From the NCBI RefSeq assembly GCF_009914755.1, contig NC_060925.1: a DNA stretch of 64,000 bases, one strand, 5' to 3'. The notes under the pieces were generated by a model. It was not told the DNA's origin. It did no database searches and saw only the letters and a list, made by a program, of their open reading frames with translations. Position 1 is the stretch's first letter. Every line of letters begins with the position of its first letter. Made by a program: the position numbers and the translations under genes. Shown here piece by piece: positions 9,884-14,240 of the stretch. The DNA comes from the human T2T-CHM13v2.0 reference genome, Homo sapiens.

Positions 9884-11258
9884 TACATAAAGAAGTGGAA
9901 ATTAATTGATTGGGCATTTGTCGAGGGAAGGATAGACAGATGAATAAAAGATATGGGACAGGAAAGAACTGAATTTTGCTGTATTTTATGTTTTCTTTAA
10001 CATATAATCCATTAATATCTTGTTATTGAAGCAAGGTAATTATTACACCACCAGCACCACACACACATACATAAACACATGAGCGTTAAAGTCATTAGGA
10101 AAATGCAAATTAAAACCACAATGAAATGTCACCCCACACCCACTAGGATGGCTACAATTTAAAAAAAAAAAAACAGACAATAACAAGTGTTGGAGAGATT
10201 GTGGAGAAATTGAAACCCCCATACGTTGATGGTAGGGATGTAAAATGGTGCAGCCACTGTGGAAAATAGTTGGCACTTCCTCAAAATGTTAAACATAGAA
10301 TTTCCATAAGGCCCATACGACCCAGTCATTCTTTATTATTATTTTATTATTCTTATTTTTTTGAGACAGAATTTCCCTCTGTCGCCCAGGCTGGAGCGCA
10401 GTGATGTGATCTCGGCTCACTGCAACCTCTGCCACCCAGAGGTTCAAGCAATTCTCATGCCTCAGCCCCCCATGTAGCCAGGATTTCAGGCAAGCACCAC
10501 TATGCCCAGCTAATTTTAGTATTTTTAGTAGAGATGGGGTTTTGCATGTTGGCCAGGCTGGTCTTGAACGCTTGAGCTCAAGTGATCCGCCCACCTCGGC
10601 CCCCCAAAGGGTGGGATTACAGACATGAGCCACTGCCCCGGCCGTGACCCAGTCATTTTACTCCCAGGTGTATACTCAAGAAAATTGAAAACAAATGTTC
10701 ATACAAAAGCTTATATACCATATTTGCAAACTATTCATCCAACAAGGGATTAATATCCAGAATATACGAGGAACTCAAACAACTCAACCATAAAAAATAA
10801 ATAATCCCATTAAAAAGTGGGCTAAGGATATAAATAGATATTTCAAAAGAAGACATACAAATGACCAACAGGTATTTGAAATAAATGCTCAGCATCACTA
10901 AACATCAAGGAAATGCAAATCAAAACCACAATGAGATATCATTGTACCCAAAAAGGAACGATTGTCATCATGATTATGATTATTATTGTTATTCTAAGAG
11001 ACAGGCTCTTGCTCCATTGCCCAGGCTAGAGTGCAATGGAATGACCATAGCTCACTGTAGCCTTTAACTCCTGAGTTCAAGCAATCCTCCCACCTCAGCC
11101 GCCCCAGTAGCTAGGACTACAGGCATGCACTACCACACCTGGCCAATATTTTAAAAATTTTTCTAGAGATGGGATCTTGCTATGTTGCCCAGCTGCTCTC
11201 CAACTTTTGGCCTCAAGTGATCCTCCTGCCTCAGCCTCCCAGAGCACTGGGATTACAG
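9884..11258 (+). repeat. Left arm (segments A+B) of ~1.37 kb inverted repeat
   Basis: Reverse complement of 11901-13262; e.g. 8 differences in ~420 bp (9884-10304) and 4 in 300 bp (~10665-10965). The ORF track independently shows the same peptides on opposite strands (10885+ / 12005-; 10043- / 12816+). Confidence 0.97.
10332..10643 (-). mobile_element. AluS inside left arm (mirror copy at 12501-12813, +)
   Basis: TSD GACCCAGTCATT; same private variants in both copies, so it predates the duplication. Confidence 0.92.
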
Positions 11259-11323
11259 GCTTGAGCCACCTCACCCGGCTGAGACTCCATCTCTACAAAA
11301 ACATTAAAAATTAGCCAGGTGTG

Positions 11324-11691
11324 CATATATACACCATGGAATACTATGCAGCCATAAAAAGGATGAGTTCATGTCCTTTGTAGGGATATGGATGAAGCTG
11401 GAAACCATCATTCTCAGCAAACTATCACAAGGACAAAAATCCAAACACCTCATGTTCTCACTCATAGGTGGGAATTGAACAATGAGAACACCTGGACACA
11501 GGAAGGGGAACATCACACACTGGGGCCTGTCGTGGGGTGGGGTGAGGGGGGAGGGATAGCATTAGGAGATATACCTAATGTAAATGACGAGTTAATGGGT
11601 GCAGCACACCAACATGGCACATGTATACATATGTAACAAACCTGCACATTGTGCACATGTACCCTAGAACTTAAAGTATAATAATAATAAA
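11324..11691 (+). mobile_element. 5'-truncated L1PA 3' end (L1PA4/5-like) inserted in an Alu
   Basis: CACCATGGAATACTATGCAGCCATAAAAAGGATGAG...GGGGGAGGGATAGCATTAGGAGATATACCTAATGTAAATGACGAG...AACTTAAAGTATAATAA; 18-bp TSD AAAAATTAGCCAGGTGTG at 11306-11323 and 11692-11709. Confidence 0.93.
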
Positions 11692-11900
11692 AAAAATTAG
11701 CCAGGTGTGGTGGCTCATGCCTGTAGTCCTAGCTACTTGGGAGGCTAAGGTGGGAGAATCACTTGAGCCAGGGAGGTCAAGGCTGCTGTGAGCTATGATT
11801 GTGCCACTGCACTTCAGCCTGGGTGACAGAGCGAGACCCTATCTCAAAAAATAAAATAAAATAAAAAGTAATAGCCATTCTCAGGCATGGTGGCTCACAT

Positions 11901-13262
11901 CTGCAATCCCATGCTTTGGGGGTCCGAAGCAGGAGGATTGCTTGAGGCCAAAAGTTGGAGAGCAGCTGGGCAACATAGCAAGATCCCATCTCTAGAAAAA
12001 AATTTTAAAATATTGGCCAGGTGTGGTGGTGCATGCCTGTACTCCTAACTACTGCGGCGGCTGAGGTGGGAGGATTGCTTGAACTACAGTGAGCTATGGT
12101 CATGCCATTGTATTCTAGCCTGGGCAATGGAGCAAGAGCCTGTCTCTTAGAATAACAATAATAATCATAATCATGATGACAATCATTCCTTTTTGGATAC
12201 AATGATATCTCATTGTGGTTTTGATTTGCATTTCCTTGATGTTTAGTGATGCTGAGCATTTATTTCATATACCTGTTGGTCATTTGTATGTCTTCTTTTG
12301 AAATAACTATTTATATCCTTAGCCCACTTTTTAATGGGATTATTTATTTTTTATGGTTGAGTTGTTTGAGTTCCTCGTATATTCTGGATATTAATCCCTT
12401 GTTGGATGAATAGTTTGCAAATATGGTATATAAGCTTTTGTATGAACATTTGTTTTCAATTTTCTTGAGTATACACCTGGGAGTAAAATGACTGGGTCAC
12501 GGCCGGGGCAGTGGCTCATGTCTGTAATCCCACCCTTTGGGGGGCCGAGGTGGGCGGATCACTTGAGCTCAAGCATTCGAGACCAGCCTGGCCAACATGG
12601 CAAAACCCCATCTCTACTAAAAATACTAAAATTAGCTGGGCATGGTGGTGCTTGCCTGAAATCCTGGCTACGTGGGGGGCTGAGGCATGAAAATTGCTTG
12701 AACCTCTGGGTGGCAGAGGTTGCAGTGAGCCAAGACTGCACCACTGCACTCCAGCCTGGGTGACAGAGGGAAACTCTGTCTCAAAAAAATAAGAATAATA
12801 AAATAATAATAAAGAATGACTGGATCATATGGGCCTTATGGAAATTCTATGTTTAACTTTTTGAGGAAGTACCAAACTATTTTCCACAGTGGCTGCACCA
12901 TTTTACATCCCTACCATCAACGTATGGGGGTTTCAATTTCTCCACAATCTCTCCAACACTTGTTATTGTCTGTTTTTTTTTTTTTAAATTGTAGCCATCC
13001 TAGTGGGTGTGGGGTGACATTTCATTGTGGTTTTAATTTGCATTTCCCTAATGACTTTAACGCTCGTGTGTTTATGTATGTGTGTGTGGTGCTGGTGGTG
13101 TAATAATTACCTTGCTTCAATAACAGGATATTAATGGATTATATGTTAAAGAAAACATAAAATACAGCAAAAGTCAGTTCTTTCCTGTCCCATATCTTTT
13201 ATTCATCTGTCTATCCTTCCCTCAACAAATGCCCAATCAATTAATTTCCACTTCTTTATGTA
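11901..13262 (-). repeat. Right arm (inverted B+A) of ~1.37 kb inverted repeat
   Basis: Reverse complement of 9884-11258; carries a private 15-bp deletion near 12084. Confidence 0.97.
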
Positions 13263-13263
13263 A

Positions 13264-13962
13264 CCAATATTTTTAAAATTTTTGTAGAGATGGGATCTTA
13301 CTATGTTGCCCAGCTTCTCTTCAACTTTTGGCCTCAAGCGATCCTCCTGCCTCAACCTCCCAAAGCACTGGGATTACAGATGTGAGCCACCATGCCTGAG
13401 AATGGCTATTATTTTTTTTTTAATTACAAAAAAAAAGGTTTTTTTTGAAACAGAGTCTCCCTCTGTCTCCCAGGCTGGAGTGCAAAGGTGCAATCTCGGC
13501 TCACTGCAGTCTCCACCTCCTGGGCAATTGTCTTGCCTCAGCCTCCTGAGTAGCTGGGATTACAGGCGTGTGCCACCACACCTGGCTAATTTTTTGTATT
13601 TTTTAGTAGAGATGGGGTTTCACCATGTTGGTCATGCTGGTCTTGAACTCCTGACCTCATGATCCACCTGACCTCGTGATCCGCCTGCCTCGGCCTCCCA
13701 ACATGCTGGGATTACAGGCGTGAGCCACCGTGCCCGGCTTTTTTATTTTATTTTATTTTTTGAGATAGGGTCTCGCTCTGTCACCCAGGCTGAAGTGCAG
13801 TGGCACAATCATGGCTCACAGCAGCCTTGACCTCCCTAGCTCAAGTGATTCTCCCACCTTAGCCTCCCAAATAGCTGAGACTACAGGTATGAGTCACCAC
13901 ACCTGGCTAATTTTTAATGTTTTTGTAGAGATGGAGTCTTGGCTGGGTGTGGTGGTTCACTC
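13264..13962 (+). repeat. Third copy of segment B (13264-13379) and forward copy of segment C (13380-13962)
   Basis: 13264-13379 matches 11143-11258 directly; 13380-13962 minus the Alu at ~13439-13738 is the reverse complement of 11259-11900 minus the L1. Confidence 0.92.
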
Positions 13963-14240
13963 CTGTAATCCCAGCACTTTGGGAGGCCGAAGTGGGCAGA
14001 TCACCTGAGGTCAGGTGTTCAAGACCAGCCTGGCCAACATGGTGAAACCCCATCTCTACTGAAAATACAAAAAATTAGCCGAGTGTTGTGGCACGTACCT
14101 GTAATCCCAGCTACTTGGGAGGCCAAGGCAGGAGAATTGCTTGAACCTGAGAGACGGAAGTTGCAGTAAATTGAGATCACACCATTGCACACCAGGCTGG
14201 ATGACAGAGTGAGACTCTGTCTCAAAACAACAACAAGAAA
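13941..14240 (+). mobile_element. AluS inserted in an older AluJ
   Basis: Full dimer; AGAGATGGAGT on both flanks. Confidence 0.9.

What the first reader, a model, noticed from the sequence alone, without database searches (positions are those of the whole stretch)
9884..13973. Fossil complex rearrangement: A-B-[C-B-A]inverted-B-C (DUP-TRP-DUP copy pattern with an inverted core)
Seen: A=9884-11142, B=11143-11258, inverted C=11259-11900, inverted B=11901-12016, inverted A=12017-13262, then B again 13264-13379 and C 13380-13962. A and C are present twice and B three times. Repeat masking hides this because the pieces are Alu/L1, but the copies share private variants and unique junctions. Known: this resembles the two-template-switch DUP-TRP/INV-DUP class seen in genomic disorders (one junction in an inverted repeat pair, one by microhomology). 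Inference: a miniature (~4 kb) version that became established in the primate lineage.
Basis: partly seen in the sequence, partly recalled or inferred. Interest (0 to 1): 0.8.

Follow-up and report, generated by a model that had tools for sequence, protein, structure and literature searches.

The report
Fossil Alu-mediated inverted duplication-triplication
A 4-kb stretch between MFSD2A and CAP1 is a genuine, old, small-scale copy of the complex "duplication, inverted triplication, duplication" rearrangement known from genomic disorders, apparently made by a replication U-turn between two nearby inverted Alu repeats, and it has no obvious function.

Summary
The order is A (9884-11142), B (11143-11258), inverted C-B-A (11259-13262), then B-C (13264-13941). 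A and C occur twice and B three times.

The copies are 88-100% alike. The best unrelated Alu in the window reaches at most 84%. The non-repeat part of A occurs only twice in the whole genome, both times here.

There are only two novel junctions:
- **Junction 1** lies in a chimeric Alu. It is B-type up to 11246. From 11259 it carries the 5' end, a 3-nt filler and the flank of a downstream inverted Alu (AluZ, 13941-14240). The switch falls in 12 shared bases.
- **Junction 2** (13262/13264) joins the start of A, inverted, to the middle of an Alu, with 0-2 nt of microhomology.

Two retroelements landed in one C copy each after the event.

This fits the published two-template-switch model, in the form with the first duplicated segment inverted (PMC11293582). 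Age is roughly 10-40 My. No outgroup genome could be examined. It is a new, small, fixed member of a known kind, of moderate interest.

The parts
9884..11142 (+). A, direct copy. It holds a non-repeat start (9884-10084), two dispersed-repeat (LINE-like) pieces (10085-10329, 10649-10964), Alu1 (10330-10648, flanked by the duplicated target GACCCAGTCATT) and the right half of the antisense Alu 'AluAB' (10965-11142).
   Evidence: Aligned to 12017-13262. The non-repeat part has only 2 genomic matches. Piece b has 7356 genomic candidates, the best others at 84-87%, against 99% for its partner.
11143..11258 (+). B, copy 1: the left half of AluAB (antisense). It is B-type up to 11246. 11247-11258 (CTGGGATTACAG) is the junction-1 switch interval, identical in B-type and AluZ-type sequence.
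   Evidence: Three-way alignment with 54 background Alu left halves; identity ranks.
11259..11283 (+). The end of the chimeric Alu that is not B-type (11259-11280), plus a 3-nt filler (11281-11283). It mirrors the 5' end of AluZ and its filler at 13938-13962.
   Evidence: B2 and B3 match only 14 of 24 here, and 55 of 57 sequences do better. AluZ matches 18 of 24.
11281..11322 (-). C', inverted copy of C, part a, up to the LINE insertion site.
   Evidence: 41 of 41 identical to 13899-13939. 13885-13925 shows the empty site.
11323..11691 (+). Insertion after the event: the 3' end of a LINE (L1-like; name recalled) with a poly(A) tail. Target-site duplication AAAAATTAGCCAGGTGT at 11306-11322 and 11692-11708.
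   Evidence: Filled versus empty site. 3575 genomic candidates, the best others at 96-97%.
11692..11900 (-). C', inverted copy, part b: the right part of the old 'C-Alu' with its A-rich tail, a 15-nt linker (11868-11882) and the first ~18 nt of AluAB (11883-11900).
   Evidence: 171 nt at 95.9% to 13740-13910, and the linker at 91% to 13392-13425.
11901..12016 (-). B, copy 2 (inverted). It carries a cluster of private changes at about 11897-11941.
   Evidence: B1/B2 differ at 1 of 74 positions in the outer part and 8 of 38 in the inner part.
12017..13262 (-). A', inverted copy of A. It lacks 15 nt that are present at 11059-11073.
13263..13263 (.). Junction 2: one base (A) between the inverted start of A and the middle linker of the Alu. 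Both parents read GC here, so 2 nt of microhomology are possible if a G became A afterwards.
   Evidence: junction against both parental sequences.
13264..13379 (+). B, copy 3 (direct). It is cut off at the Alu's middle A-rich linker by junction 2.
   Evidence: 91.4% to copy 1 and 88.4% to copy 2.
13380..13417 (+). C'', direct copy, part b: the first ~18 nt of AluAB, the linker, and the start of the T-rich tail of C-Alu.
13418..13738 (-). Insertion after the event: Alu 'AluN' (body 13438-13738, with an internal 17-nt tandem duplication) plus 17 nt of unclear origin (13421-13437). The flanks are A/T-rich, so the target duplication is not resolved.
   Evidence: Absent from C'. It is the least diverged of the Alus of the locus (12 of 223 stable columns).
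13739..13940 (+). C'', direct copy, part a: the right part of C-Alu (antisense) up to the AluZ insertion site, including the filler CTT at 13938-13940.
13941..14240 (+). AluZ (sense), single copy, inserted into C-Alu. Target-site duplication AGAGATGGAGT at 13927-13937 and 14241-14251. With AluAB it forms the inverted pair for junction 1.
   Evidence: It predates the event by logic, since its 5' junction is copied at 11259-11294, and by divergence (19 of 229 against 12 of 223 for AluN).
14252..14356 (+). The left part of C-Alu (antisense), single copy. It continues the Alu interrupted by AluZ and marks the undisturbed ancestral order on the right.
   Evidence: Read from the sequence and the flanks.

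Best explanation
**Ancestral locus (inferred).** It read x - A - AluAB (antisense) - 15-nt linker - C-Alu (antisense) interrupted by AluZ (sense) - y. AluAB and AluZ were therefore head-to-head inverted Alus about 220 nt apart.

**The event (inferred).** One replication-based event (FoSTeS/MMBIR or BIR type) with two template switches.
1. A nascent strand had copied x-A and most of AluAB. It left its template inside the 12-nt stretch CTGGGATTACAG and re-annealed to the same stretch of AluZ on the complementary strand.
2. It then copied backwards through the last ~22 nt of AluZ, then C, the linker, all of AluAB and A. This gave the inverted C'-B'-A'.
3. At the start of A (9884) it switched again, with 0-2 nt of microhomology, to the middle linker of AluAB on the original strand. 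It continued through B-C-AluZ-y.

**Result.** A-B | C'-B'-A' | B-C, with about 1.75 kb added. Later a LINE 3' end landed in C' and an Alu in C''.

**Shown:** the anatomy, the two junctions, the chimeric Alu, the later insertions.

**Inferred:** a single event, its replicative nature, its direction and its age (roughly 10-40 My).

The structure has no evident function.
For: **1. Only two adjacencies are novel.** All others (A-B, B-linker-C, C-AluZ) are kept in each copy.

**2. Junction 1 is derived.**
- AluZ sits between an 11-nt target-site duplication, so its 5' junction with C-Alu was made by retrotransposition.
- The same junction reappears in reverse complement at 11259-11322, including a 3-nt filler (CTT versus CTC) and 41 of 41 identical flank bases. 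There it is joined to an Alu that is B-type up to 11246.
- The last 24 nt of that Alu are not B-type. B2 and B3 match 14 of 24, and 55 of 57 compared Alus do better.

**3. Junction 2 is derived.** The third B starts in the middle of an Alu whose other half is present in copies 1 and 2.

**4. The segment present twice in the '2-3-2' pattern on the right (C) is exactly what lay between the two inverted Alus.** The published model requires this for the second duplicated segment (PMC11293582, section 9).

**5. Published precedents.**
- Chimeric Alu junctions with 14, 34 and 47 bp of identity, and a proposed U-turn at inverted Alus 310 bp apart (PMC4352052, passages read).
- Alu pairs of about 85% similarity mediating this rearrangement at 17p13.3 (PMC11293582, passages read).

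**6. The order of ages fits.** Elements that must predate the event are all more diverged at 229 stable Alu columns than the Alu that postdates it: AluAB 19.2%, C-Alu 16.6%, Alu1 about 9% and AluZ 8.3%, against AluN 5.4%.

**7. One age suffices.** At stable Alu columns the arms (Alu1 8 of 228, 3.5%) and C'/C'' (6 of 160, 3.75%) are equally diverged.
Against: - **No outgroup.** No outgroup genome was available, so the single-copy ancestor is inferred only from the internal logic of the copies.
- **Weak donor signal in the Alu end.** The 24-nt end of the chimeric Alu matches AluZ at only 18 of 24, and 18 of 57 other Alus match it better. The donor is identified by the flank, not by the Alu letters themselves.
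- **Low similarity of the pair.** AluAB and AluZ are today only 69% alike overall (190 of 274 aligned pairs).
- **Uneven identity between copies.**
  - Non-Alu parts of the arms differ at 13 of 762 positions (1.7%), while B1/B3 differ at 6.7-7.7%.
  - The middle B has 8 differences in 38 nt from copy 1, against 1 in 74 just beside it (p = 0.0016).
  - At 2-3 sites B1 and B2 share a state that looks derived.
  - These points could mean later exchange between the arms or more than one step.
- **Same end product by another route.** A full inverted triplication followed by two deletions would give the same structure.
Confidence: 0.65

Rival explanations
1. **Full inverted triplication first, then erosion.** The ODIRA view: [A-B-C-AluZ][inverted copy][A-B-C-AluZ] with two palindromic junctions. 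One palindrome was then trimmed by recombination between AluAB and the now directly oriented inverted copy of AluZ. The other was trimmed by an end-joining deletion that removed A from the third copy.
For: PMC10766186 (section 5, part 1 read) derives the duplication / inverted triplication / duplication pattern in exactly this way. It notes cases with one junction between closely spaced repeats and the other blunt or microhomologous. The chimeric Alu and the 0-2-nt junction 2 are equally what this model predicts.
Against: - It needs three events instead of one.
- It needs a replication origin inside a segment of under 2 kb. That requirement is part of the model as I recall it; it was not tested here.
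- No remnant of either palindromic centre is left.
- The sequence alone cannot separate this from the direct two-switch route.
Confidence: 0.12
2. **Two or more separate steps of different age.** One version is an older inverted duplication of B-C and a younger inverted duplication of A-B. Another is one old event followed by repeated exchange (gene conversion) between the two long arms that keeps them alike.
For: - Over all sites, non-CpG differences are 22 of 1208 in A/A' against 15 of 323 in C'/C'' plus B1/B3 (p = 0.007).
- B1 and B2 are 74 of 75 alike in the outer part and then drop abruptly at 11218.
- There are 2-3 sites where B1 and B2 share a non-majority state and B3 has the majority state.
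Against: - The contrast disappears when like is compared with like. Alu-derived parts of the arms give 14 of 532 against 15 of 323 (p = 0.12). At stable Alu columns the figures are 3.5% against 3.75%.
- Non-Alu sequence is simply less diverged than Alu sequence within the arms (9 of 750 against 13 of 458, p = 0.046).
- A younger duplication would have had to rebuild a seamless AluAB in the middle copy and land exactly on the older junction.
Confidence: 0.18
3. **Assembly artefact, or a private or polymorphic structure of this one genome.**
For: Only one assembly was examined. No reads and no second human genome were available.
Against: - The arms differ at 45 mismatches plus indels in 1390 columns, and each C copy carries its own retroelement insertion with the other as empty site. 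This means millions of years of separate history, not a collapse or a recent event.
- The whole structure is about 4 kb, far shorter than the long reads used for such assemblies (recalled).
Confidence: 0.03

Closest known systems
DUP-TRP/INV-DUP complex genomic rearrangements of genomic disorders (MECP2, PLP1, 17p13.3). PMC11293582 and PMC4352052 read in passages or sections; Carvalho et al. 2011 recalled only.
   Same: - Copy pattern 2-3-2 with an inverted middle copy of the triplicated piece.
- Exactly two junctions in cis.
- Junction 1 is a chimera of a pre-existing inverted repeat pair.
- The second duplicated segment is the interval between the two repeats.
- Junction 2 is blunt or has a few bases of microhomology.
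- The form with the first duplicated segment inverted is among the predicted and observed forms.
   Different: - **Scale.** About 1.75 kb was added, against tens to hundreds of kb. The triplicated piece is 116 nt and lies inside one of the mediating repeats.
- **Mediating repeats.** They are old Alus about 220 nt apart, only 69% alike today, with 12 nt of identity at the switch. The disease cases mostly use low-copy repeats of 1-140 kb at over 98% identity.
- **Status.** It is old, lies in the reference genome and has no known phenotype, rather than being a de novo disease allele.
Alu/Alu-mediated rearrangement with a chimeric Alu (Song et al. 2018, seen only in the reference list of PMC11293582; examples in PMC4352052).
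   Same: A hybrid Alu with the switch inside a short run of identity flanked by imperfect similarity.
   Different: Most described cases are deletions or duplications between directly oriented Alus. Here the pair is inverted and gives a U-turn.
ODIRA inverted triplications and their eroded derivatives (PMC10766186).
   Same: Direct - inverted - direct arrangement; secondary loss at the junctions would give the 2-3-2 pattern.
   Different: No palindromic junction survives. Origin dependence could not be tested.
Short-range template-switch mutations in great ape genomes (PMC7954356; listing and start of abstract seen only).
   Same: A fixed evolutionary footprint of a polymerase that switches to the opposite strand and back.
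   Different: By that paper's abstract those events are at scales below the kilobase-to-megabase range. This one copies 1.6 kb and uses an Alu pair.
Small inverted segmental duplication or palindrome. A genome-wide catalogue of inverted pairs of at least 200 bp and at least 80% identity exists for this assembly (PMC11794170, passages read).
   Same: Arms of 1.39 kb at 95.4% identity with a 642-nt spacer would meet that catalogue's thresholds.
   Different: - Such a catalogue lists pairs, not the third B-C copy or the junction logic.
- Only the list of its supplementary files was seen (two readable files, not opened; a third too large to read). I could not check that this pair is listed.

Membership tests
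DUP-TRP/INV-DUP | Copy-number pattern duplication - triplication - duplication over contiguous ancestral segments. | tested here: met
   A occurs twice, B three times and C twice. The non-repeat part of A has exactly 2 genomic matches.
DUP-TRP/INV-DUP | One copy of the triplicated segment is inverted and lies between two direct copies. | tested here: met
   B at 11143 (+), 11901-12016 (-) and 13264 (+).
DUP-TRP/INV-DUP | Only two novel junctions, in cis. | tested here: met
   All other adjacencies are shared between copies. Both junctions lie on one 4-kb stretch.
DUP-TRP/INV-DUP | Junction 1 lies within a pre-existing pair of inverted repeats and gives a chimeric repeat. | tested here: met
   - The Alu is B-type to 11246 and not B-type from 11259. 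It carries AluZ's 5' filler and flank.
- That AluZ pre-existed follows from its own target-site duplication.
- Weak point: AluZ matches the 24-nt end at 18 of 24 only.
DUP-TRP/INV-DUP | The second duplicated segment equals the interval between the two inverted repeats. | tested here: met
   C is the linker plus the right part of C-Alu, lying between the 5' ends of AluAB and AluZ. Rule as stated in PMC11293582, section 9.
DUP-TRP/INV-DUP | Junction 2 is blunt, microhomologous or has a small insertion. | tested here: met
   One odd base at 13263. Both parents read GC there.
DUP-TRP/INV-DUP | Formed in one mutational event from a single-copy ancestor. | not testable with these tools
   No primate outgroup or human population data were available. 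Identity between copies is uneven.
Inverted repeat kept alike by arm-to-arm gene conversion | The arms are more alike than their age allows. | tested here: inconclusive
   The contrast over all sites gives p = 0.007. Alu-only gives p = 0.12, and stable columns give 3.5% against 3.75%. B1 and B2 share a derived-looking state at 2-3 sites.
ODIRA inverted triplication | Palindromic junctions at short inverted repeats, with a replication origin inside the unit. | not testable with these tools
   No palindromic centre remains. Origin activity is unknown.

The most novel reading that the evidence does not exclude
This is a sequence-resolved evolutionary fossil of a single two-switch U-turn at two head-to-head Alus only about 220 nt apart. 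On this reading, the tight cluster of changes private to the newly made middle copy is a preserved footprint of the error-prone polymerase that made the inverted copy. That cluster lies at about 11897-11941, some 230 nt behind junction 1 once the later LINE is removed. If so, many such kilobase-scale fossils should lie hidden in masked repeats. Together they could give the natural rate, the size range and the mutational signature of this mechanism over primate evolution.
Probability: 0.15. Interest if true: 0.6.

Novelty: new member of a known kind. Interest (0 to 1): 0.35.

Why it matters
- **Scale and persistence.** The rearrangement type known from MECP2 and PLP1 disease alleles also works at kilobase scale. 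It can use old, poorly matching Alus as its inverted repeat pair, and its products can persist for millions of years.
- **Masking hides it.** Repeat masking hides such history. Apart from the 201-nt non-repeat start of A (9884-10084), every piece checked is a dispersed repeat: Alu or LINE-like sequence.
- **A search rule.** The case gives a concrete signature for a genome-wide search: an inverted pair plus a short third direct copy, with a chimeric Alu at one junction.
- **Local consequence.** The locus now holds 1.4-kb inverted arms 642 nt apart, about 30 kb upstream of CAP1. That could in principle favour spacer inversion or further rearrangement.
- **Function.** No function is suggested by anything seen.

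Tried and rejected
- **Earlier findings** of this scan were not open.
- **Subfamily names.** No repeat library was on hand, so names such as AluJ, AluS or L1PA could not be assigned.
  - I used relative divergence from the window's own 45 full-length Alus instead.
  - For the LINE fragment I used 29 genomic copies (4 of 348 private differences). This is a lower bound, because the copies were chosen as its best matches.
- **Whole-genome searches with AluN and AluZ** gave best identities of only 84% and 88%. The tool scores only 40 of several thousand candidates and skips common words, so I do not use these figures for dating.
- **Pfam scan** of the open frame of the LINE fragment found nothing. 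An earlier call with frames holding stop codons was rejected by the tool. The name L1 therefore rests on recall plus the poly(A) tail, the target-site duplication and the copy number.
- **Simple inversion between AluAB and AluZ** is rejected. The reciprocal chimera is absent and AluZ is intact.
- **AluZ as a homologue by descent of AluAB** (a longer inverted duplication) is rejected. They are 69% alike, and AluZ lacks the private B variants (48 of 75 in the outer B, where 35 of 57 Alus do better).
- **Arm-to-arm gene conversion as a necessary part of the story** is downgraded, because Alu parts of the arms are as diverged as C'/C''.
- **Prior description.**
  - Three literature searches returned listings in which no title or abstract start concerned a fixed kilobase-scale instance; none was aimed at this locus and I read full passages in only four papers.
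  - The genome-wide catalogue of inverted pairs (PMC11794170) may list the arm pair, but I saw only the list of its supplementary files.

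
Full report
**What is there**

A self-comparison of 9000-15500 finds one long inverted match, 9884-11270 against 13262-11889. It spans 1390 columns at 95.4% identity, with 45 mismatches and 5 gap openings. The gapless blocks are 525, 388 and 276 nt at 98, 99 and 95%.

Behind the second arm, 13264-13391 repeats 11143-11270 in direct orientation at 91.4%. From there the sequence continues as the reverse complement of what lies left of the second arm:
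- 13392-13425 matches 11888-11855 at 91%.
- 13740-13910 matches 11867-11697 at 95.9%.
- 13899-13939 matches 11322-11282 at 41 of 41.

**Is it more than repeat-family likeness?**

Almost all pieces are Alu or LINE-like, so I compared each piece with the whole 64-kb window.
- The three B copies are 88-91% alike. The best of the other 87-136 hits per query is 81-82%.
- The C copies are 94-100% alike. The best unrelated hit is 82-84%.
- The 34-nt non-Alu linker between B and C has only its partner as a hit.

In a column-wise alignment with 54 other Alu left halves, all three B copies share many states that the majority lacks.

The 201-nt non-repeat start of A has exactly two matches in the 3.1-Gb assembly, both here. 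A LINE-like piece of A has 7356 genomic candidates. Its best foreign matches are 84-87%, against 99% for its partner arm.

**Later insertions explain the unequal C copies**

- **In the inverted C.** A LINE-type 3' end with a poly(A) tail sits at 11323-11691 between two copies of AAAAATTAGCCAGGTGT. The direct C shows the empty site. This fragment has 3575 genomic candidates, with the best others at 96-97%. The name L1 is from recall; a Pfam scan of its open frame found nothing.
- **In the direct C.** About 320 nt holding an Alu (AluN) sit at about 13418-13738. The inverted C shows the empty site. The flanks there are A/T-rich, and I could not define the target duplication.

Both insertions came after the copies were made.

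**The ancestral order**

AluZ (13941-14240, sense) lies between two copies of AGAGATGGAGT, at 13927-13937 and 14241-14251. The Alu it interrupted (C-Alu, antisense) continues at 14252-14356. So the order C-Alu / AluZ / C-Alu is an ordinary retrotransposition product, and the right side of the locus is undisturbed.

B together with the end of A forms one full antisense Alu (AluAB) in copy 1. In copy 2 it does so in reverse. The third B is cut off at the Alu's middle A-rich linker, where it abuts the inverted start of A.

The ancestor therefore read x - A - AluAB - linker - C-Alu(right) - AluZ - C-Alu(left) - y. Only two adjacencies are new.

**Junction 1**

Copy 1 of B carries B-private states up to 11246. 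At 11259-11260 it departs from the state shared by B2 and B3. Over 11257-11280, B2 and B3 match it at only 14 of 24, and 55 of 57 compared Alus do better.

Directly behind this Alu end come 3 nt (GAG, the complement of CTC) and then the complement of AGAGATGGAGT and of the rest of C. In reverse complement this is the 5' junction of AluZ, where the filler reads CTT. That junction was created by AluZ's own insertion, so the copy at 11259-11294 must descend from it.

Junction 1 is thus a chimera of AluAB and AluZ. The switch lies inside CTGGGATTACAG (11247-11258), which is identical in both.

The two Alus were head to head and about 220 nt apart. That figure is the distance from 13397 to 13941 less AluN.

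Weak points:
- AluZ matches the last 24 nt at 18 of 24, and 18 of 57 other Alus match better.
- The two Alus are 69% alike today.

This end of an Alu is rich in CpG (recalled), which may account for part of that.

**Junction 2**

At 13262/13264 the inverted start of A meets the Alu linker with one odd base (A) between them. Both parental sequences read GC at that place. Two bases of microhomology are therefore possible if a G later became A; otherwise the junction is blunt with one inserted base.

**Mechanism**

Two junctions, one in an inverted repeat pair and one with at most 2 nt of microhomology, and a right-hand duplicated segment equal to the interval between the repeats: these are the defining features of the duplication / inverted triplication / duplication class.

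PMC11293582 (section 9 read) models a switch from the first repeat to the second in inverted orientation. That switch forms a chimeric repeat and duplicates the interval between the repeats. A second switch then sets the sizes of the triplicated and first duplicated segments.

Sections 9 and 10 state two further points:
- Conformers 1 and 2 use the first-to-second switch.
- Conformers 1 and 3 have the first duplicated segment inverted.

The order found here combines both. I did not see the figure, so this assignment is my inference.

PMC4352052 (passages read) reports chimeric Alu junctions with 14, 34 and 47 bp of identity. It also reports a likely U-turn at inverted Alus 310 bp apart.

I therefore take a single replicative two-switch event as the best explanation (confidence 0.65). 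About 1.75 kb was added at the time: the 2121-nt B1-to-B3 spacing less the 369-nt LINE insertion at 11323-11691.

**Age and evenness**

Differences between the arms:

| Segment | Differences |
|---|---|
| Non-repeat start of A | 4 of 201 |
| LINE-like piece a | 5 of 245 |
| LINE-like piece b | 4 of 316 |
| Alu1 | 13 of 319 |
| Right half of AluAB | 7 of 163 |

Other pairs:

| Pair | Differences |
|---|---|
| C'/C'' | 7 of 171 and 1 of 42 |
| B1/B3 | 5 of 75 and 3 of 39 |

Taken over all sites, the arms look younger than the pairs that involve the third copy (non-CpG 22 of 1208 against 15 of 323, p = 0.007). When like is compared with like the contrast fades:
- Alu-derived parts of the arms give 14 of 532 against 15 of 323 (p = 0.12).
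- At columns where at least 75% of 45 background Alus agree, Alu1 differs between arms at 8 of 228 and C'/C'' at 6 of 160.

One age is therefore enough. Exchange between the arms is possible but not required. The hints for it are 2-3 sites where B1 and B2 share a non-majority state.

The order of element ages fits the model. AluAB 19.2%, C-Alu 16.6%, Alu1 about 9% and AluZ 8.3% must all predate the event. AluN, at 5.4%, postdates it.

The LINE fragment has 4 of 348 private differences against its 29 best genomic copies (a lower bound).

With commonly used rates of 0.5-1 x 10^-9 per site and year (recalled), the figures give these times:
- Non-Alu arm divergence gives about 8-17 My.
- Pairs involving the third copy give up to about 45 My.

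I give 10-40 My as a rough range. Only outgroup genomes can settle it.

**Unexplained**

The middle B copy differs from copy 1 at 8 of 38 positions in 11903-11941, against 1 of 74 in the adjoining part (p = 0.0016). Most of these changes are private to the middle copy and point away from the Alu majority.

Break-induced replication is described as error-prone (PMC4352052, discussion passage read). This stretch lay about 230 nt behind junction 1, so a synthesis footprint is conceivable. However, the interval was picked after seeing the data, and derived changes are not otherwise concentrated in the newly made copies.

**Rivals**

- **Full inverted triplication with later trimming of both palindromic junctions** (PMC10766186, section 5 part 1 read). 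It gives the same end product and cannot be excluded from sequence. It needs more steps.
- **Multi-step histories.** These would have to rebuild a seamless Alu in the middle copy.
- **Assembly error.** This is very unlikely, given 45 mismatches between the arms and a separate retroelement insertion in each C copy.

**Novelty and interest**

The three literature searches were not aimed at this locus, and their listings showed no fixed kilobase-scale example by title or abstract start.

A genome-wide catalogue of inverted pairs of at least 200 bp and 80% identity exists for this assembly (PMC11794170) and would be expected to hold the arm pair. I saw only the list of its supplementary files, not their contents.

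This is a new, small and old member of a known kind of rearrangement, in non-coding repeat-derived DNA. It is a tidy teaching case and a template for a genome-wide search, but not a surprise to specialists.

Noticed in passing
window 11897-11941: A cluster of changes private to the middle B copy: 8 of 38 positions differ from copy 1, against 1 of 74 just beside it. Most point away from the Alu majority state.
   Followed up: partly
window 11059-11073 vs 12085/12086: A 15-nt stretch of the right half of AluAB is present in the left arm and missing in the right arm. It is the largest indel between the arms.
   Followed up: no
window 10085-10964: The two LINE-like pieces of A are out of order. 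Both are on the + strand and share a ~39-nt overlapping stretch (10093-10131 and 10903-10941, 85%). In the whole-genome search the foreign matches to piece b start only at about 10720. An older rearrangement or two separate insertions predate the event.
   Followed up: partly
window 13421-13437 and 13650-13683: AluN has 17 nt of unclear origin (AATTACAAAAAAAAAGG) between its T-run and the target's T-run. It also has an internal 17-nt tandem duplication (TGACCTCATGATCCACC / TGACCTCGTGATCCGCC).
   Followed up: no
window 14373-14920: Right of the structure lies another LINE-like stretch on the + strand. It covers the same element regions as piece a of A (65% over 142 nt) and as the young LINE fragment (64% over 252 nt; 88% over 41 nt at 14675-14715). 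These look like unrelated older copies, not part of the duplication.
   Followed up: partly
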